Shown: one piece after another, positions 4,487-40,689 of the stretch
How the letters are laid out: each line of letters opens with the position of its first letter
How positions within the stretch are numbered: position 1 is the first letter of the stretch
Source: a virus
DNA: 44,709 nucleotides
Virus genome (UHGV): UHGV-0231863
Reading direction: 5' to 3' (one strand)
Notes under the pieces: generated by a model
What the model saw: the letters and a program-made list of their open reading frames with translations, nothing else
Database searches by the model: none
What the model was told of the DNA's origin: nothing
Position numbers and translations under genes: made by a program

Positions 4487-4510
4487 AAGGCCCCGTTTGG
4501 GGCCTTTTTC
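4487..4510. terminator. bidirectional intrinsic terminator
   Basis: AAGGCCCC-gttt-GGGGCCTT hairpin flanked by A-run and T-run at a strand switch. Confidence 0.7.
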
Positions 4511-5065
4511 TTACAAACCTAATCTTAAAGCAATGCCTATAGCGTTCGATTTAACGTAACCCGGTATGATGTAGGTGTCATAATCTTTTACACCATCAAT
4601 ATCGTACAGGTAACCGCGGCTGTCCCCTTCAAACGTATGGCCGTCTCTGTGCAAGCGGACGATTCTCACATCATGCCCCGCGGCAACGATAGGGGCTACT
4701 TCGCTGGCGAACCCGCCATCAGACACCACAAAAACTTCGTCGCCGTCGGGCAAGTTTCCGGCAAGATACTTACCGAAATAATCATTACCGAATACCGGTT
4801 TAATGAATTGCTCGGAAATGGCAATCATGAACTGACGCCGAGACAACCCGTTAAGGAAACCCTCTGGCTTTTCTTTCCGCGCCCGGTCGTCGTAGCCGTC
4901 GAGAAACTCGCGGTAAGCATCCTGGCCTAACGCAGCCATAGCAATATTGAACATCGGATTCTTGAAACTGGCGACACCCTTCGCAAAGCCCATTTCTACC
5001 AGCGCCCTAGCAAGTGTGTCTTTCCCGCAGCCCGCAGGACCATTAAGAATAATTACCTTAGCCAT
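4511..5065 (-). CDS. dNMP kinase-like P-loop kinase
   Basis: Walker A GPAGCGKDT at N-terminus; later VSDGGF...HDVRIVRLHRDG block resembles T4 gp1-type deoxynucleoside monophosphate kinases. Confidence 0.55.
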   Translation of the reverse strand: MAKVIILNGPAGCGKDTLARALVEMGFAKGVASFKNPMFNIAMAALGQDAYREFLDGYDDRARKEKPEGFLNGLSRRQFMIAISEQFIKPVFGNDYFGKYLAGNLPDGDEVFVVSDGGFASEVAPIVAAGHDVRIVRLHRDGHTFEGDSRGYLYDIDGVKDYDTYIIPGYVKSNAIGIALRLGL

Positions 5066-5550
5066 TATTTATCACTCCCATGTGGTTTTAAGTGTGTAGA
5101 GTTCCCGTTACAGTCGTATTCAGTAACTGCGTGAGTGGTTATGCCGAGTTCGCGGAAATGCTTTATTACCGCTGGAGAGTCGTCGAATGCACACAAGATT
5201 CTCTCCGGCCCAATAGCACGCAACACCTCTTCTTTAATTACGATGTCTTTTCTGTTGTCGTGTTTGCTGCGCATGATTAACTGATAAAATTCTACGCGGT
5301 GGCGCTGCAACCACATTCTGGTTTCTTTTTCCGCGTCATCACTACGGCCTGTTAAGATAATAACGGCATAGCGACGATTAAGGGCGTTACACAGTTCGAT
5401 GTTATCTTTAATGGGTGCATCGTCTTTGCACGCCATGTTAAATGGTTTCCACGCCCAGGTTTCGCCGTAGTTATCTTTCGGCAGCAGGTGTAAACGATGA
5501 GTACCATCTGCCAATGTCCCGTCTAAATCGAAAATCACAATATCTTTCAT
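5065..5550 (-). CDS. HAD-superfamily phosphatase (nucleotidase / polynucleotide 3'-phosphatase-like)
   Basis: HAD motif I FDLDGTL at residues 7-13; start overlaps stop of the kinase gene. Confidence 0.6.
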   Translation of the reverse strand: MKDIVIFDLDGTLADGTHRLHLLPKDNYGETWAWKPFNMACKDDAPIKDNIELCNALNRRYAVIILTGRSDDAEKETRMWLQRHRVEFYQLIMRSKHDNRKDIVIKEEVLRAIGPERILCAFDDSPAVIKHFRELGITTHAVTEYDCNGNSTHLKPHGSDK

Positions 5551-6677
5551 CCAAGCATCTCCGGTGAAATAGTTAAACGTGCGACCTCGCCATATTCGGC
5601 GCTATAAGTAATTACGTTTGCACTGCGGCCCGACATCCACCCACCGCGGGAGGCATATGCATCTTTAGCCGCGAGAGTGCGGTGTTGCTCAACAATCATG
5701 TTACGGCTTTCTACAATCTTTTGGTGGTGCAGGTGACCCACGTGGGCGTAGCTGTAAACACTCTCGCCGAACGCTTTGCGGAACTTGGCGATCATAACCG
5801 GTTCGATAGCGTCGAATCGTGCTTTATGCCCATGATGGAAGAACAGCGTCGTTTTGCCGTGTTGCACCATCTTGTAAACATCCGGCGACGTATCGACGAA
5901 CACACGCGGCTCATTGTCGTACAGCGTACTAAACATCTCAGCTAACCAAATCATTCCGCTTTCGTCGTGGTTACCTTGCACGATAAGCAAGCGAACATTT
6001 TTATGTTTAACGAGAGCCATATCAATGACACGGCGGACCATACGAATCATGTAGCGTACAAGTTTCTGATAGCGGGTGTCAGCGTCAAGAACATGACCAC
6101 TGGCAGGTGTAACGGCGTCCAGACTATCGAAATGCGCAAGGTCGCCCAGCAGATTAATAACTCCTGTTCCGGCATCCGGTGCTTTCTGGAACGCTGCGTC
6201 GAACCAGCAGGAGAACAGGTCTTCCGCAATCTTCATGTCCCAGTCGTCGCCGCTCTCGTCAGCCCAGGCCAGCATACCGAGATGGAAATCAGACACAGTG
6301 TAAAGGTTGAGTAGCTTGTCGTCTCGTTTGGCGCGAACGGCTTTAACAGGTGCAACTGGTGTAATCTCCGACTTCATGCCTTCGATTACGGCTTTCATCA
6401 ATTCAACCTGACGTTCGGCATCGGTGTCGGTCTTAACCCATTGCAACTTGGTGTTGCCAAACTCATCCACCAGTGATGACGTTCCTTTAATCTTGTAGCC
6501 GTCCGGTACAAGGTAACTAACGTCACGCCCGTGGCCTACACCTTTCTTAGCCAGCTTCGCTTTACGGATACGAATAACGCGGTCGGAGATGCCGTATTTA
6601 CGGGCGATGTCGATATTCTTCATACCGGCGTTCAATTCTTCCTGTAACTGTTCGTCGGTTATTTTCTTCCTGGCCAT
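5547..6677 (-). CDS. calcineurin-like metallophosphoesterase with N-terminal HTH
   Basis: N-terminal HTH (IARKYGISDRVIRIRK) then phosphoesterase motifs DFHLG, GDLAHFD, GNHD, HHGH, GHLHH. Confidence 0.65.
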   Translation of the reverse strand: MARKKITDEQLQEELNAGMKNIDIARKYGISDRVIRIRKAKLAKKGVGHGRDVSYLVPDGYKIKGTSSLVDEFGNTKLQWVKTDTDAERQVELMKAVIEGMKSEITPVAPVKAVRAKRDDKLLNLYTVSDFHLGMLAWADESGDDWDMKIAEDLFSCWFDAAFQKAPDAGTGVINLLGDLAHFDSLDAVTPASGHVLDADTRYQKLVRYMIRMVRRVIDMALVKHKNVRLLIVQGNHDESGMIWLAEMFSTLYDNEPRVFVDTSPDVYKMVQHGKTTLFFHHGHKARFDAIEPVMIAKFRKAFGESVYSYAHVGHLHHQKIVESRNMIVEQHRTLAAKDAYASRGGWMSGRSANVITYSAEYGEVARLTISPEMLG

Positions 6678-6714
6678 GCTTATTCCTCGTGTTTAGGATT
6701 TGTCCTATACTAGC

Positions 6715-6921
6715 TCACTTCTCTTTGACATTCGAGTTGCACGCCCAGATTAAGATAAATACCCACGGCAGCAGAACCCAACCAAGAAACAGATTAGCCA
6801 TGAATATCGCTAACTTCGCTTTATGGTTACGGAAGTACGCAACCAGGAAAGGCGCGAAATAAGCGAGCAGTGCAAACAGAATTAAGGAAACTGGTAAACT
6901 GGACATTTTAAACCCCTTCAT
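6715..6921 (-). CDS. superinfection-immunity-like small membrane protein (Imm family)
   Basis: 68 aa, two predicted TM helices, NLFLGWVLLPWVFILIWA motif; own promoter upstream. Confidence 0.5.
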   Translation of the reverse strand: MKGFKMSSLPVSLILFALLAYFAPFLVAYFRNHKAKLAIFMANLFLGWVLLPWVFILIWACNSNVKEK

Positions 6922-6936: not shown

Positions 6937-6965
6937 ATAGTACCCTATTATATTGGGGTGTGCAA
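6937..6965 (-). promoter_or_regulatory. promoter TTGCAC-17-TACTAT with AATAG-N4-CTATT operator (6936-6949)
   Basis: Minus strand CTTGCACACcccaatataatagggTACTATTCAC upstream of Imm-like gene; near-identical to cassettes at 28984 and 30284. Confidence 0.55.
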
Positions 6966-7073
6966 GTAATGTGATAGAATAAGTTTGCGCCTAGTGTCGC
7001 ACACGAAAAGCGGGTGGTTCCCGTCTGGCGCATTTATCGTTAACCTGTAACCTCTTAACCAAAGGATTAAAGA

Positions 7074-38751: not shown

Positions 38752-40689
38752 ATGAGCTTACTGACATCTCTAATCAGCCACCAGATTTGGCTGCAACGCG
38801 CCGCATCCGGTGAAGTAAAAGACCTCGCACCATTCATTCAGGAAATGCGGGACGAAATCAAACGGCAGGTGCTGCTATTCGGCGACGACGGCCGCAGCAC
38901 CGCACGGCTGAATAAACTGTTACGTGACCTTGAAGAAGCTCTGACGGGGCTCACAGGTGACTGGCAAACAAAGCTGACAGAAGACCTTAAGGAACTGGCG
39001 GCGTATGAGGCTGAGTGGAACGTAAAGACACTGGCCACCAACGTTAACGCGGAATTTGTTACGCCTACCGCCGAGCAAGTGTGGGCCGCTGCCGAGTTTC
39101 AGCCGCTATCGTTAAGTGACAAGCCTGTTGATTTCACTAAGCTAATGTCAGGCTGGGGTGAAACCGAAGTCGCGCGCCTTGTGACCGGCGTTAAGATGGG
39201 CTTTGTACAAGGCCAGACAACACGGCAGATTGTTAAGAATGTCGTAGGCGCTGGTGGGCTGGCGGACATCTCTGAGCGTAACGCAGCTACGGTAATACGC
39301 ACCGCGCTGTCTCATGTATCCAACGAAGCCCGTAACGAGACGTACCGCCAGAACGATGACATCATCGAGAAATACGAGTGGGTGTCGACGCTGGACAGCC
39401 GTACCAGTACAACGTGTTTCACGGCTGAAACAGAATTAGCGCCCATCGCGGGGATGGACGCGGTAATGCGCGGACTCTATTCAGGAAAAATCCTTACCAT
39501 CGAACTTTCCAACGGCGAGAAGTTCAGTGGCACCCCGAAACACCCTGTACTCACGCAATACGGATGGACTCCGCTTGATGAACTCGACCCAACTAAGCAT
39601 GTCTTGTATACCACTGTTGACAAAGTGACTGTGCTCGAAACAGTGAAGAACATAAACATGCCAGCCAGAGCGGATTATATTTTTAATACGCTCGCTGATT
39701 TCCCCATCAGGAAAATGGTAAGCACGAGTCCCGCGGCAACAGATTTCTATGGCGATGGAGTGGGACTCAATGGCAAAATCGACATTGTACGGGCCGATTG
39801 CAAACTGCGGAACTACGTCCATGCCAGCGGAATTAAACAATTCAAAAGCGAGGGTTTCAGTCTTATTCATAGCGCCGCTTTGCTGTCGGACGATAGCTCT
39901 GGCGATTTTCTCCTCCGGGGTGAATGTCCTGTGAGTGTGCCCGCGCTTAGCGAGGCCAAGTGTTTTGACCATAGAATAGAAAACTGTTTTGCTTACTTGG
40001 GTCCTTCTTATGCACTCAATAGGCGGGACGCCGGACTCGAACAATTCTATAGCCCTTTTTTGATTCAAAATGGTGTCGTTAGAAACCCAACCACGGGGTC
40101 GATCATGCATGAGTCCGAGCTTCTTGAGAAATGTTGTTACCGTGGTGGTAGTGACGCCGTAATTCTTGGCTATGATGCTGGCGGGAGTGCCATCTCGGTA
40201 CAAAGAACAAATATCATCCGCATAAGCGTCGAGTTTAGAACGTGCCATGTTTATACCCTCTCTAGTAGTCAAGGATATTATACAGCAGGTAGTGCGATAG
40301 TCAAGAATTGCAGGGCCAGAGACGGGATGACGTGGGAAATCGGTAAAGGGCCGATGCCTCCGGCCCATTTTGGGTGCAGAAGCACCACTGCGCCTGTAAT
40401 CAGTTCGGAGTTCGACTTCCTCGATAAAGGCGCAAAACGCGCGGCTAAGGGTGCGGACGGCGGTATGCAGGTAAGTGCGGACACCACCTATTACGAGTTC
40501 CTGAAACAACAACCGGCATGGTTTCAGGACCAGGCGCTTGGTCCTGTTCGCGGTAAGATTTTCCGCAACAGCGGTATATCACCAGAGGAGTTTCGCGTAA
40601 TATCTGTAGATGGTTTCGGGAATCCGCTCACGCTTAAGCAGATGGCGGAACTCGATAAACGTGTTGCTGATTATCTGAAAGGGGAATAA
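38752..40689 (+). CDS. head morphogenesis protein (Mu F / SPP1 gp7-like) interrupted by an intein
   Basis: Extein junction reconstitutes DSRTSTT|CRARDGMTW...PPAHFGCRSTT, matching the D-x-R-x-R...H...G...CRC-type Mu F motif; 298 in-frame codons are inserted. Confidence 0.8.
   Translation: MSLLTSLISHQIWLQRAASGEVKDLAPFIQEMRDEIKRQVLLFGDDGRSTARLNKLLRDLEEALTGLTGDWQTKLTEDLKELAAYEAEWNVKTLATNVNAEFVTPTAEQVWAAAEFQPLSLSDKPVDFTKLMSGWGETEVARLVTGVKMGFVQGQTTRQIVKNVVGAGGLADISERNAATVIRTALSHVSNEARNETYRQNDDIIEKYEWVSTLDSRTSTTCFTAETELAPIAGMDAVMRGLYSGKILTIELSNGEKFSGTPKHPVLTQYGWTPLDELDPTKHVLYTTVDKVTVLETVKNINMPARADYIFNTLADFPIRKMVSTSPAATDFYGDGVGLNGKIDIVRADCKLRNYVHASGIKQFKSEGFSLIHSAALLSDDSSGDFLLRGECPVSVPALSEAKCFDHRIENCFAYLGPSYALNRRDAGLEQFYSPFLIQNGVVRNPTTGSIMHESELLEKCCYRGGSDAVILGYDAGGSAISVQRTNIIRISVEFRTCHVYTLSSSQGYYTAGSAIVKNCRARDGMTWEIGKGPMPPAHFGCRSTTAPVISSEFDFLDKGAKRAAKGADGGMQVSADTTYYEFLKQQPAWFQDQALGPVRGKIFRNSGISPEEFRVISVDGFGNPLTLKQMAELDKRVADYLKGE
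39481..40248 (-). CDS. antisense-nested gene: tandem HTH + DUF559/Vsr-like endonuclease-fold protein
   Basis: Minus-strand ORF from ATG 40248 (antisense to His499 codon) with GAGGG SD and TTGACT-16-TATAAT promoter; IIAKNYGVTTTTVTTFLKKLGL and IECIRRTQVSKTVFYSMVKTLGL HTH-like; QFAIGPYNVDFAIESHSIAIEI...GWHVYVL matches DUF559 pattern. Confidence 0.55.
   Translation of the reverse strand: MARSKLDAYADDICSLYRDGTPASIIAKNYGVTTTTVTTFLKKLGLMHDRPRGWVSNDTILNQKRAIELFESGVPPIECIRRTQVSKTVFYSMVKTLGLAKRGHTHRTFTPEEKIARAIVRQQSGAMNKTETLAFELFNSAGMDVVPQFAIGPYNVDFAIESHSIAIEICCRGTRAYHFPDGEISERIKNIIRSGWHVYVLHCFEHSHFVNSGIQDMLSWVEFIKRSPSVLREYRVFRGATELLAVGKFDGKDFS
40277..40304 (-). promoter_or_regulatory. sigma70-type promoter TTGACT-16-TATAAT for the antisense intein-nested gene
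   Basis: Minus strand reads TTGACTatcgcactacctgctgTATAAT, then GAGGG SD and ATG; lies within the intein C-terminal coding region. Confidence 0.55.

What the first reader, a model, noticed from the sequence alone, without database searches (positions are those of the whole stretch)
5547..6677. HTH-fused calcineurin-like phosphoesterase of unclear role
A DNA-binding HTH joined to a complete metallophosphoesterase motif set (DxH, GDxxD, GNHD, HHGH, GHLH) is an unusual fusion. It could be an Mre11/SbcD-like nuclease involved in replication or recombination, a protein phosphatase, or an enzyme that degrades nucleotide second messengers used by host defence.
Basis: inference. Interest (0 to 1): 0.4.

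Follow-up and report, generated by a model that had tools for sequence, protein, structure and literature searches.

The report
Phage HTH-tethered solo SbcD/Mre11-like nuclease
This is a real, well-conserved phage gene that joins a small DNA-binding domain to an Mre11/SbcD-type metal-dependent nuclease domain. It is a near-identical copy of an already annotated but never tested gene found in thousands of phages, and it most likely cuts DNA, either the host chromosome or phage recombination intermediates.

Summary
Window 5547-6677 (minus strand) encodes a 376-aa protein with an N-terminal three-helix HTH, a conserved beta-hairpin/helix connector and a complete metallophosphoesterase (MPE) domain. 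The metal-binding residues are invariant in 90 diverse relatives.

The fusion is not unusual. The window is a Kagunavirus (K1H/K1G-like coliphage), and the gene is 99.7% identical at protein level (99.8% at nucleotide level) to deposited genes annotated 'DNA repair exonuclease/metallophosphoesterase' (PHROG 704). The family occurs in over 2,000 phage genomes and is a core gene of T1-like phages.

Profile comparison aligns the catalytic domain with T4 gp47 (SbcD/Mre11-like) from motif I to motif V (Prob 75%). The best fold matches are Mre11 and the PolD-DP1 exonuclease. There is no capping domain and no Rad50/SbcC partner.

The T5 A1 family is a predicted metallophosphatase that is necessary and sufficient for host DNA degradation. 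It shares the HTH-plus-MPE layout and several unusual motif variants with this family.

I found no orthology to lambda protein phosphatase and no support for a signalling-nucleotide role.

Best reading: a Rad50-independent, HTH-tethered DNA nuclease transcribed from its own promoter. A PNKP-type phosphatase and a P-loop kinase are translationally coupled downstream, but only in some phages. The enzyme activity is untested. Interest is moderate.

The parts
5547..6677 (-). HTH-metallophosphoesterase gene (376 aa; PHROG 704 'DNA repair exonuclease')
   Evidence: ORF listed. PHROG 704 match E=8.8e-167 over the full length. 99.8% nucleotide identity to PQ579973 and about 99.5% to K1H-like phages.
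6546..6656 (-). N-terminal helix-turn-helix, residues 8-44 (three helices)
   Evidence: AF2 model has helices 8-16, 21-28 and 32-44. Family-level Pfam hits: Sigma70_r4_2 1.5e-9, GerE 2.4e-8. Profile matches GerE structure 1fse.
6366..6497 (-). Conserved connector: beta-hairpin (residues 61-85, motifs KGTS...QWVKT) plus a long helix (87-104)
   Evidence: AF2 secondary structure. K64, G65, S67, W80 and K82 are invariant among 12 relatives; G74 and W80 are at least 90% conserved among 90.
5550..6323 (-). Metallophosphoesterase catalytic domain, residues 119-376. It has all five motifs and a family-specific insert after motif II (VTPASGHVLDADTR, residues 189-202).
   Evidence: Motif positions and invariance. 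Domain-only AF2 model pLDDT 97.5. Foldseek probability 1.0 to Mre11, PolD DP1 and Rv0805. hhalign to T4 gp47 Prob 75%; gp47 has a gap opposite this insert.
6684..6688 (-). Shine-Dalgarno GAGGA, 6 nt upstream of the ATG
   Evidence: Read directly from the sequence.
6947..6975 (-). Sigma-70-like promoter (ATCACA-17-TATAAT, 10 of 12 matches) upstream of the minus-strand cassette
   Evidence: Consensus scan. Six promoter-like sites were found in the region against 4.0 expected in shuffles, so this is suggestive only.
6715..6921 (-). First gene of the cassette: small membrane protein of the superinfection-immunity (Imm) type. The real start is probably the ATG at 6906.
   Evidence: Pfam Imm_superinfect E=9.3e-13. 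PHROG 1039 E=4.7e-23. An SD-like GAAGGGG precedes the second ATG.
5065..5550 (-). HAD-family phosphatase of the polynucleotide kinase-phosphatase type. Its start overlaps the HTH-MPE stop codon (ATGA).
   Evidence: Pfam HAD_PNKP E=6.7e-20. PDB matches Pnkp1 4xrp E=1.7e-6 and T4 PNK 1ltq. Overlap shown.
4511..5065 (-). P-loop kinase-like protein (PHROG 139 'dNMP kinase'). Its start overlaps the HAD stop codon (TAATG).
   Evidence: PHROG 139 E=4.5e-46. Only the Walker A region matches Pfam or PDB entries. Overlap shown.
4487..4506 (.). Hairpin (8 pairs, 6 G-C) scored as terminator-like on both strands, between the tail-tube gene and the end of the cassette. The T-run is clear on the + strand and interrupted (5 T in 8) on the - strand.
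   Evidence: Terminator scan on both strands.

Best explanation
The gene encodes a stand-alone (Rad50/SbcC-independent) SbcD/Mre11-type binuclear-metal phosphodiesterase that acts on DNA.

**Proposed mechanism**
- The N-terminal HTH tethers or targets the enzyme to duplex DNA. A conserved hairpin/helix connector packs on the catalytic domain.
- The two-metal site (D130, H132, D179, N236, H282, H315, H317, with H237 as the transition-state histidine) hydrolyses DNA phosphodiester bonds.
- The gene sits in its own minus-strand unit inside the plus-strand tail operon, with a sigma-70-like promoter and a bidirectional terminator. It can therefore be expressed independently of the late genes.

**Most likely biological role**
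- Breakdown of host DNA and/or resection of DNA ends for recombination-dependent replication and concatemer formation. These are the two roles recorded for T4 gp46/47 and, for host DNA degradation, for T5 A1.
- In this phage a PNKP-type 3'-phosphatase and a P-loop kinase are translationally coupled downstream. They would clean 3'-P/5'-OH ends or recycle the released nucleotides.

**Shown versus inferred**
- Shown: gene, domains, conserved active site, homology to gp47-type nucleases, family distribution, operon anatomy.
- Inferred: DNA as substrate, metal dependence, timing of expression, biological role.
For: **Active site and fold**
- The active site is complete and invariant.
- AF2 models are high confidence: pLDDT 93.3 for the full protein and 97.5 for the domain.
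- The highest TM-scores to solved structures are Thermotoga Mre11 (0.57) and PolD DP1 proofreading exonuclease (0.56), at Foldseek probability 1.0.

**Homology to gp47-type nucleases**
- hhalign of the catalytic domain against a T4 gp47 profile gives Prob 75%, E 2.4e-5 and 187 columns from motif I (DxHLG) to beyond motif V (TLxAxD...RGxW). The score is 42.5, against 15.8 +/- 2.6 (max 23.7) for 60 column shuffles.
- The family shares the GDxxH form of motif II with Thermotoga Mre11 (GDLLH).

**Link to T5 A1**
- The T5 A1 family shares an N-terminal HTH at the same position (HTH_23, CENP-B_N and HTH_7 above Pfam thresholds).
- It also shares collinear motif variants: NHDxxxSxWL, HGH, GHxH and ITY. 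hhalign gives Prob 53%, E 1.3e-4, score 37.5 against shuffles of 15.3 +/- 2.6.
- A1 is reported as a predicted metallophosphatase that is necessary and sufficient for host DNA degradation (bioRxiv 10.64898/2026.04.02.716235).

**Genomic context**
- Neighbours elsewhere are DNA-metabolism genes: 5'-3' exonuclease and endonuclease VII upstream, PNK phosphatase, P-loop protein and DNA ligase downstream in Autographiviridae, and DNA ligase in Campylobacter phages.
- It is a core gene: 508 of 522 Drexlerviridae (PMC13164509) and 2,052 phage records.
- It is a frequent neighbour or target of homing endonucleases.
- A mycobacteriophage MPE was shown to have phosphodiesterase activity and to damage host DNA (PMC12287305). 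I did not test whether it belongs to this family.
Against: - No member of this family has been assayed, so nuclease activity is inferred.
- Fold E-values do not separate nucleases from the cAMP phosphodiesterase Rv0805, which is the top hit by E-value at 1.4e-7.
- TM-scores are only about 0.55, so there is no close solved relative.
- Single-sequence hhalign against E. coli SbcD is insignificant at Prob 2.8%.
- Pfam Metallophos scores fall below the gathering thresholds.
- The Mre11 capping domain and a Rad50/SbcC partner are absent. Canonical Mre11 biochemistry therefore cannot simply be transferred.
- An HTH could equally serve autoregulation rather than substrate targeting.
- The promoter is only a consensus match.
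Confidence: 0.55

Rival explanations
1. It is an end-healing phosphoesterase of a nucleic-acid repair cassette. The MPE would open 2',3'-cyclic phosphates or remove 3'-blocking groups, as the MPE domain of bacterial Pnkp does. The HAD enzyme would remove 3'-phosphate and the P-loop kinase would phosphorylate 5'-OH. Breaks made by host nucleases, for example anticodon nucleases or nicking defences, could then be resealed by a ligase.
For: - The three genes are translationally coupled.
- The HAD protein is of the PNKP type.
- The same MPE, HAD, P-loop order recurs in Eracentumvirus, there followed by a DNA ligase, and MPE followed by the PNK-type phosphatase recurs in Bonnellvirus (the P-loop protein was not detected there).
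- PNK and dNMP-kinase genes are also the commonest genes right after this gene in Drexlerviridae that lack SH3.
Against: - The HAD/P-loop pair is accessory. It is present in only 4 of 20 MPE groups and is missing from many Kagunavirus genomes that keep the MPE. The MPE's core function therefore does not depend on the pair.
- Solved bacterial Pnkp phosphatase-domain and lambda phosphatase structures are not identifiable by description among the top 50 fold matches.
- No ligase is annotated in the near-identical K1H genome.
- The P-loop protein matches a 'dNMP kinase' PHROG and not T4 PNK in the PDB.
Confidence: 0.12
2. It is an anti-defence phosphodiesterase that destroys host immune signalling nucleotides (cyclic oligonucleotides or cNMPs). 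The HTH would serve as an autorepressor, as in HTH-fused anti-CRISPRs.
For: - The top fold hit by E-value is the class III cyclic-nucleotide phosphodiesterase Rv0805.
- The gene sits in a moron-like cassette with its own promoter, next to a superinfection-immunity gene.
Against: - It is a core, near-universal gene of several phage families, whereas anti-defence genes are usually variable.
- Its neighbours are DNA-metabolism genes.
- TM-score to Rv0805 (0.45) is lower than to Mre11 or DP1.
- An HMM of the family gives no score to E. coli CpdA.
- There is no PADLOC-related signal.
Confidence: 0.08
3. It is primarily a transcription regulator, for example of late or lysis genes, and its MPE domain has a sensing or accessory catalytic role.
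For: - The HTH resembles sigma-70 region 4 and LuxR-type domains.
- There is a weak hit to PHROG 836 'late transcriptional activator' (E=8.8e-4).
- In T1-like phages the gene lies directly upstream of holin-endolysin-spanin. In prophages it lies just upstream of terminase-sized genes.
Against: - All catalytic residues are invariant, which argues for an enzyme.
- Campylobacter-phage homologues lack the HTH but keep the MPE.
- The position relative to late genes is not conserved. Here the gene is antisense inside the tail operon.
Confidence: 0.07
4. It is a Ser/Thr/Tyr protein phosphatase like lambda NinI.
For: It belongs to the same superfamily, and phages are known to encode such phosphatases.
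Against: - hhalign against NinI gives Prob 0.8%.
- The motifs are GDxxH and GNHD, not GDxVDRG and GNHE.
- No entry describing a PPP-type or lambda protein phosphatase appears among the top 50 fold matches.
- NinI-like genes coexist with this family in the same genomes.
Confidence: 0.03

Closest known systems
T4 gp47 / bacterial SbcD / archaeal-eukaryotic Mre11 (nuclease subunit of the Mre11-Rad50 type complex)
   Same: - Same fold and the same five metal-binding motifs.
- The profile alignment runs from motif I to beyond motif V (Prob 75%).
- Highest TM-scores to solved structures.
- GDxxH motif II, as in Thermotoga Mre11.
- gp46/47 is annotated as required for recombination and host-DNA degradation.
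   Different: - No capping domain; the protein ends about 20 residues after the catalytic core.
- No Rad50/SbcC/gp46 partner in the genome.
- It has an N-terminal HTH and a hairpin connector that Mre11 lacks.
- It has a 14-residue conserved insert after motif II.
- Identity to solved structures is only 12-14%.
Phage T5 A1 (pre-early 'DNA transfer protein', predicted metallophosphatase; PHROG 1745)
   Same: - N-terminal HTH at residues about 8-42 in family members.
- C-terminal divergent MPE with the same unusual motif variants: (S/G)NHDxxxSxWL, HGH, GHxH, ITY, and a His-containing insert after motif II.
- Neither passes the Pfam Metallophos thresholds.
- A1's described structural neighbours, double-strand-break repair nucleases and polymerase proofreading subunits, are the same as found here.
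   Different: - A1 has a roughly 220-residue middle region where this protein has about 70.
- The sequence relationship is only marginal: Prob 53% over 54 columns.
- There is no cross-hit between the PHROGs.
- A1 works with a separate DNA-binding protein, A2, and is needed for second-step DNA transfer, which this phage does not have.
PolD small subunit DP1 (archaeal 3'-5' proofreading exonuclease)
   Same: It is an MPE-fold exonuclease acting on DNA without Rad50, with TM-score 0.56. Homologues of this family in public annotation carry the label 'DNA polymerase II small subunit'.
   Different: DP1 has an OB-fold and works inside a polymerase complex. Identity is 11-13% and I found no sequence-level match.
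Pseudomonas putida MPE (stand-alone Mn-dependent DNA nuclease; PDB 6nvo)
   Same: It is a stand-alone MPE-superfamily DNA nuclease encoded among repair genes (from my own knowledge of the Shuman-lab work). One near-identical database entry carries this PDB-derived label.
   Different: The only sequence match is a 23-residue stretch around GNHD at E=0.47. It is not among the top 50 fold matches and has no HTH.
Mycobacteriophage A10ZJ24 gp48 metallophosphoesterase
   Same: It is a phage MPE with demonstrated phosphodiesterase activity, reported to disrupt host genomic DNA (PMC12287305).
   Different: It comes from cluster A mycobacteriophages, has its first motif at residue about 10 and no HTH is described. 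I did not test homology to this family.
Lambda NinI Ser/Thr protein phosphatase
   Same: Same superfamily, and encoded by a phage.
   Different: No detectable specific similarity, PPP-specific motifs are absent, and NinI-like genes coexist with this family in the same genomes.

Membership tests
Calcineurin-like metallophosphoesterase superfamily | Five ordered metal-binding motifs: DxH, GD, GNH(D/E), H, GHxH | tested here: met
   All five are present at residues 130-132, 178-179, 235-238, 282 and 314-317. They are invariant in 90 relatives.
Calcineurin-like metallophosphoesterase superfamily | Double beta-sheet sandwich fold | tested here: met
   AF2 domain model has pLDDT 97.5. Foldseek probability is 1.0 to many MPE structures.
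Calcineurin-like metallophosphoesterase superfamily | Pfam Metallophos or Metallophos_2 gathering score | tested here: not met
   Scores are 17.5 against a cut-off of 21.5, and 20.8 against 27. This is a divergent branch; membership rests on the motifs and the fold.
PHROG 704 ('DNA repair exonuclease') | Full-length match to the family profile | tested here: met
   E=8.8e-167, residues 4-375 against profile positions 2-389 of 390.
Mre11/SbcD/gp47 nucleases | Homologous catalytic domain | tested here: met
   hhalign against a T4 gp47 profile gives Prob 75%, E 2.4e-5, 187 columns, roughly ten standard deviations above shuffles. The single sequence of E. coli SbcD alone is not significant.
Mre11/SbcD/gp47 nucleases | C-terminal capping (DNA-specificity) domain | tested here: not met
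   The protein ends at residue 376, just after the core. gp47 residues 222-339 have no counterpart.
Mre11/SbcD/gp47 nucleases | Rad50/SbcC/gp46 ATPase partner encoded in the genome | tested here: not met
   phmmer with T4 gp46 and E. coli SbcC against all window ORFs of at least 80 aa gives no score above 6 bits. None is annotated in K1H.
Mre11/SbcD/gp47 nucleases | Mn2+-dependent exo/endonuclease activity on DNA | not testable with these tools
   This needs purified protein.
T5 A1 family (PHROG 1745) | N-terminal HTH plus C-terminal divergent MPE with SNHDxxxxRWL, HGH and GHTH motifs | tested here: inconclusive
   The architecture and motif variants are shared. Profile support is marginal at Prob 53%, and HMM scores are at most 20 bits.
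T5 A1 family (PHROG 1745) | Match to the family profile, and a long conserved middle region (about residues 75-285 of A1) | tested here: not met
   The query does not hit PHROG 1745. Its connector is about 70 residues with no similarity to the A1 middle region.
PPP-type protein phosphatases (lambda NinI) | GDxHG, GDxVDRG and GNHE motifs, and sequence similarity | tested here: not met
   The motifs differ. hhalign gives Prob 0.8%. The two kinds of gene co-occur in the same genomes.
Class III cyclic-nucleotide phosphodiesterases (CpdA/Rv0805) | Specific sequence or structure similarity beyond the common MPE core | tested here: inconclusive
   Rv0805 is the top Foldseek E-value (1.4e-7) but its TM-score is only 0.41-0.45. 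The family HMM gives no hit to E. coli CpdA.
Known anti-phage defence or counter-defence protein families (PADLOC) | Match to any model | tested here: not met
   No family matched at E<=0.1.

The most novel reading that the evidence does not exclude
**First claim.** PHROG-704 HTH-MPE proteins are the so far unassigned host-chromosome-degrading nuclease of T1-like, Jersey/K1-like, chi-like and phiKMV-like phages. They would form an evolutionary bridge between SbcD/gp47 and the enigmatic T5 A1 protein: this family scores 42.5 against gp47 and 37.5 against A1, whereas A1 against gp47 scores only 22.

**Second claim.** The accessory HAD phosphatase and dNMP-kinase-like pair, which repeatedly lands directly downstream, exists to remove the released mononucleotides. 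These include m6dAMP, the danger signal sensed by Metis-type defences.
Probability: 0.2. Interest if true: 0.65.

Novelty: new member of a known kind. Interest (0 to 1): 0.4.

Why it matters
The gene itself is already in GenBank many times over, so nothing new is discovered at the sequence level. What matters is that this is one of the largest phage enzyme families still without an experiment. It is a core gene of T1-like and Jersey/K1-like phages, including many therapeutic candidates, and it is routinely labelled 'DNA repair exonuclease' by transfer alone.

The analysis gives it a concrete, testable identity: a Rad50-independent, HTH-tethered SbcD-type nuclease, possibly related to T5 A1. 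If that holds, it would identify how many common siphoviruses and podoviruses attack host DNA or process their own DNA ends. It would also help explain T5 A1 and give a rationale for the PNK-like genes that travel with it.

Tried and rejected
**Searches that gave nothing or nothing decisive**
- Direct sequence search of the PDB: no hit. The profile search gave only sub-significant GerE, Mre11 and MPE hits.
- hhalign of the family profile against single sequences of E. coli SbcD, lambda NinI and T5 A2: all insignificant. Single-sequence templates are too weak; a gp47 family profile was needed.
- NCBIfam and PADLOC: nothing.
- Full-length fold search gave low TM-scores because of the flexible N-terminus. 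Repeating it with the domain alone gave the same set of hits without a clear winner.

**Ideas tested and dropped or downgraded**
- An obligatory MPE/PNK repair operon. Rejected as the core function because the pair is present in only 4 of 20 family groups.
- A conserved partner gene. Clustering all neighbours within 4 kb over 87 loci found none apart from shadow ORFs.
- Cellular (non-phage) homologues. The 27 hits in bacterial genomes share phage genes with viral contigs, so they are prophages.
- T5 A1 as the closest relative. This was weakened by the gp47 control, which aligns longer and scores higher. I keep it as a probable more distant relative.
- T5 Dmp against the HAD protein. Only the generic HAD motif I matched, and Dmp has no Pfam hit.

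**Literature**
- Searches for experimental work on this family (Kagunavirus, Drexlerviridae, escape mutants, transposon essentiality) found no functional study.

**Technical limits**
- Global hhalign mode failed to give a meaningful alignment.
- The gp47 homologue search returned mostly near-identical sequences, so the control profile is shallow.
Full report
**1. What is there**

The window is a complete or nearly complete Kagunavirus genome (Guernseyvirinae; K1H/K1G-like coliphages). The target region is 99.8% identical at nucleotide level to Escherichia phage MirsaeidiM_Esher4 and 99.3-99.6% identical to K1H, UTI89UKE1 and related phages.

The finding's coordinates match exactly a 376-aa ORF on the minus strand. 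It has a GAGGA ribosome-binding site 6 nt upstream of the ATG.

Deposited annotations call the gene 'DNA repair exonuclease', 'metallophosphoesterase', 'calcineurin-like phosphoesterase' or 'hypothetical protein'. It matches PHROG 704 over its full length (E=8.8e-167).

**2. Checking the observation**

The five metallophosphoesterase (MPE) motifs sit at these positions:
- D130-F-H132
- G178-D179-L-A-H182
- G235-N-H-D238
- H281-H-G-H284
- G314-H-L-H317

In an alignment of 90 relatives taken from 50%-identity cluster representatives (33-50% identical to the query), D130, H132, G178, D179, N236, H237, H282, G314 and H317 are invariant. H182, D238, H284 and H315 are at least 90% conserved.

Evidence for the HTH:
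- In this one sequence it is only a weak Pfam hit (GerE, E=0.012).
- Across the 90 relatives many HTH models match the N-terminus: Sigma70_r4_2 down to 1.5e-9, GerE 2.4e-8, and HTH_8, HTH_1 and HTH_50.
- The AlphaFold2 model (mean pLDDT 93.3, pTM 0.81) shows three helices at residues 8-44.

After the HTH, the model shows a poorly ordered linker, a beta-hairpin (61-85) plus a long helix (87-104), and the catalytic domain (119-376). The hairpin carries residues as conserved as the active site (KGTS...QWVKT), so it is an integral part of the enzyme.

The word 'unusual' is not. The fusion is the normal form of a family with 4,609 representative clusters and matches in 2,052 phage records, 1,961 of them covering at least 80% of the query.

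**3. Surroundings**

The gene is the second of four minus-strand genes inserted between the plus-strand tail-tube gene and the tail assembly chaperone gene:

| Gene | Coordinates | Evidence |
|---|---|---|
| Superinfection-immunity-type membrane protein | 6715-6921 | |
| HTH-MPE | 5547-6677 | |
| HAD phosphatase of the polynucleotide kinase-phosphatase type | 5065-5550 | Pfam HAD_PNKP 6.7e-20; PDB Pnkp1 and T4 PNK |
| P-loop protein matching the 'dNMP kinase' PHROG 139 | 4511-5065 | |

- Stop and start codons overlap at both downstream junctions (ATGA and TAATG).
- A sigma-70-like promoter (10 of 12 matches) lies upstream at 6975-6947.
- An 8-bp G+C-rich hairpin at 4487-4506, scored as terminator-like on both strands, closes the unit.

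The cassette therefore looks like an independent transcription unit antisense to the late operon. The promoter is only a consensus match, so this is inference.

**4. Distribution and context of the family**

The family occurs in:
- Guernseyvirinae and Drexlerviridae (T1, TLS and Klebsiella phages);
- Autographiviridae (Eracentumvirus, Bonnellvirus);
- Casjensviridae-like Rhodobacter phages;
- Vibrio, Pseudoalteromonas and Ruegeria phages;
- Campylobacter Eucampyvirinae, in a form without the HTH.

A published pangenome analysis classes the gene as 'persistent' in Drexlerviridae. The module of this gene followed by holin, endolysin and spanin was found in 508 of 522 genomes (PMC13164509).

The 27 hits in bacterial genomes share neighbouring genes with viral contigs, and one is identical to an IMG/VR contig. 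These are prophages, and there the gene usually lies just upstream of terminase-sized genes.

I clustered all ORFs within 4 kb of the gene in 87 loci, which fall into 20 groups at 80% MPE identity. No universal partner emerged.

The HAD plus P-loop pair follows the gene directly in 4 of 20 groups and is absent from many Kagunavirus genomes that keep the MPE. The pair, or at least the PNK-type phosphatase, also lies downstream of the MPE gene in other lineages:
- Eracentumvirus, where both genes are present and are followed by a DNA ligase;
- Bonnellvirus, where the phosphatase is followed by a hypothetical protein that my P-loop search did not detect;
- Drexlerviridae, according to the cited paper.

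In the two Autographiviridae genera the gene follows a 5'-3' exonuclease and an endonuclease VII. In Campylobacter phages it follows a DNA ligase.

HNH endonuclease genes lie next to the gene in 7 of 20 groups. Some homologues are split into two ORFs (PHROGs 20703 and 20762), or carry a homing endonuclease within the match. This is typical of conserved, important phage genes.

**5. Which metallophosphoesterase branch?**

Sequence searches against the PDB find nothing significant. Pfam scores are below threshold.

Fold search with the full model, and with a domain-only model (pLDDT 97.5), gives probability-1.0 matches to many MPE enzymes at E around 1e-7:

| Structure | TM-score (normalised to the query domain) |
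|---|---|
| Thermotoga Mre11 | 0.57 |
| PolD DP1 proofreading exonuclease | 0.56 |
| Methanocaldococcus Mre11 | about 0.5 |
| Rv0805 cAMP phosphodiesterase (best E-value) | 0.41-0.45 |

P. putida MPE (6nvo) is not among the first 50, and no description among them names lambda phosphatase or the bacterial Pnkp phosphatase domain.

Viral predicted structures that match include proteins labelled 'DNA polymerase II small subunit'. They also include the Lactobacillus phage LfeInf protein, which a recent preprint describes as an Mre11-Rad50-like fusion.

The decisive comparison was profile against profile. The catalytic domain aligns with a shallow T4 gp47 family profile:
- 187 columns, from DxHLG (motif I) through GD, GNHD and GHxH to a shared TLxAxD...RGxW segment;
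- Prob 75%, E 2.4e-5;
- score 42.5, against 15.8 +/- 2.6 (max 23.7) for 60 column-shuffled controls.

The alignment also shows a family-specific 14-residue insert after motif II (VTPASGHVLDADTR, nearly invariant) that gp47 lacks. gp47's C-terminal capping region has no counterpart here. No SbcC/Rad50/gp46 homologue exists among the window's ORFs.

**6. The T5 A1 lead**

While looking for characterised phage MPEs I compared the family with T5 A1. Its C-terminal half carries, in the same order:
- GDIH
- HDVHDF...NHHN
- SNHDLALSRWL
- HGH
- GHTH
- ITY

These mirror this family's TDxH, GDxxHxD...SGH, GNHDxxxSxWL, HHGH, GHxH and ITY.

Statistical support:
- hhalign of the two catalytic-domain profiles gives Prob 53%, E 1.3e-4 and score 37.5, against 15.3 +/- 2.6 (max 25) for shuffles. 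A second, collinear weak segment is also found.
- HMM-to-sequence scores are weak, at most 20 bits. They are positive for many A1-family members, and no hit at all was reported for SbcD, CpdA or NinI.

A1 homologues at 46-48% identity carry N-terminal HTH domains at residues about 8-42, above Pfam thresholds (HTH_23, CENP-B_N, HTH_7). That is the same position as in this protein.

A 2026 preprint reports A1 as a predicted metallophosphatase with structural features of double-strand-break repair nucleases and polymerase proofreading subunits. It finds A1 to be the sole pre-early gene necessary and sufficient for host DNA degradation. Nuclease activity in vitro has not yet been shown (10.64898/2026.04.02.716235).

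The gp47 control tempers this lead. This family is closer to gp47 than to A1, and A1 against gp47 scores only Prob 1.6%. The family therefore looks like an intermediate between canonical SbcD-type nucleases and the highly diverged A1.

**7. Interpretation**

Best supported: a stand-alone SbcD/Mre11-type DNA phosphodiesterase tethered to DNA by an HTH. Both functionally studied relatives (T4 gp46/47 and T5 A1) are tied to host-DNA degradation, and gp46/47 also to recombination-dependent replication (annotation).

From my own recollection of the older literature (Roberts and Drexler, 1981), T1 degrades host DNA and mutants defective in this transduce better. I could not retrieve these papers here.

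Where present, the coupled PNKP-type phosphatase and kinase would heal 3'-P/5'-OH ends or recycle nucleotides. The KanT1 authors suggested a nucleotide-supply role.

Rival readings are listed with their tests: an RNA/DNA end-healing enzyme, a signalling-nucleotide phosphodiesterase with an autoregulatory HTH, a regulator, and a protein phosphatase. None has positive evidence beyond superfamily membership or gene position. The protein-phosphatase reading is the weakest.

**8. Novelty and score**

The gene is a near-identical copy of deposited, annotated genes and a member of a known, named but unstudied family. Nothing about it is categorically new.

The added value is:
- the verified architecture;
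- the demonstration that it is a Rad50-less relative of gp47/SbcD;
- the likely link to T5 A1;
- the finding that the PNK-like pair is an accessory add-on.

Interest is moderate (0.4). It is not surprising to a specialist, but it is a very large core phage family that now has a clear, cheap experimental test.

Noticed in passing
window 38752-40689 (+): The Mu-F-like head morphogenesis protein is 645 aa here but 358 aa in phage K1H. A roughly 297-residue insertion (residues 223-519) interrupts otherwise 94-95% identical sequence. The host sequence resumes at Cys520 and Cys222 lies at or next to the N-terminal junction (BLAST aligns both to K1H Cys233), and there is a weak Pfam Intein_splicing hit (E=8e-4). 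This is probably an intein in a virion morphogenesis gene.
   Followed up: partly
window 4511-6921 (-); loci L003, L007, L052, L053: A PNKP-type HAD phosphatase and a P-loop 'dNMP kinase-like' gene travel as a pair. They sit directly downstream of the HTH-MPE gene in Kagunavirus and Eracentumvirus and, according to PMC13164509, in Drexlerviridae. In Bonnellvirus (L007) my search detected only the HAD gene. The pair is missing from many close relatives (4 of 20 groups). Its role (end healing, nucleotide salvage or removal of dNMP danger signals) is open.
   Followed up: partly
window 6715-6921 (-): A superinfection-immunity (Imm-type) small membrane protein gene heads the cassette. K1H has a different 108-aa hypothetical gene at this position, so the slot upstream of the MPE gene is variable.
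   Followed up: partly
L002 4326-4997 (TLS endY); H58 (phage mEp010); 7 of 20 MPE groups: HNH homing-endonuclease genes frequently abut the HTH-MPE gene, and in some phages the gene is split into N- and C-terminal ORFs (PHROGs 20703 and 20762) or holds a homing endonuclease. The gene appears to be a homing target.
   Followed up: partly
L005 886-1548 (Vibrio phage pYD21-A); L046 62-859: Lambda-NinI-like PPP phosphatase genes occur in the same genomes as the HTH-MPE gene, so these are two distinct metallophosphoesterase functions in one phage.
   Followed up: no
L118 1706-3376 (T5 A1) and its homologues P0343, P0346, P0373: Homologues of T5 A1 at 46-48% identity carry clear N-terminal HTH domains, and the T5 A1 N-terminus aligns weakly to the HTH of this family. 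A1 neither passes Pfam Metallophos nor aligns with gp47, yet it shares motif variants with PHROG 704.
   Followed up: partly
window 4487-4506: A perfect 8-bp G+C-rich hairpin lies between the convergent tail-tube gene and the end of the minus-strand cassette and scores as terminator-like on both strands, more weakly on the - strand. Late tail genes downstream (from 7074) must therefore be transcribed through or re-initiated after a 2.5-kb antisense insert.
   Followed up: no
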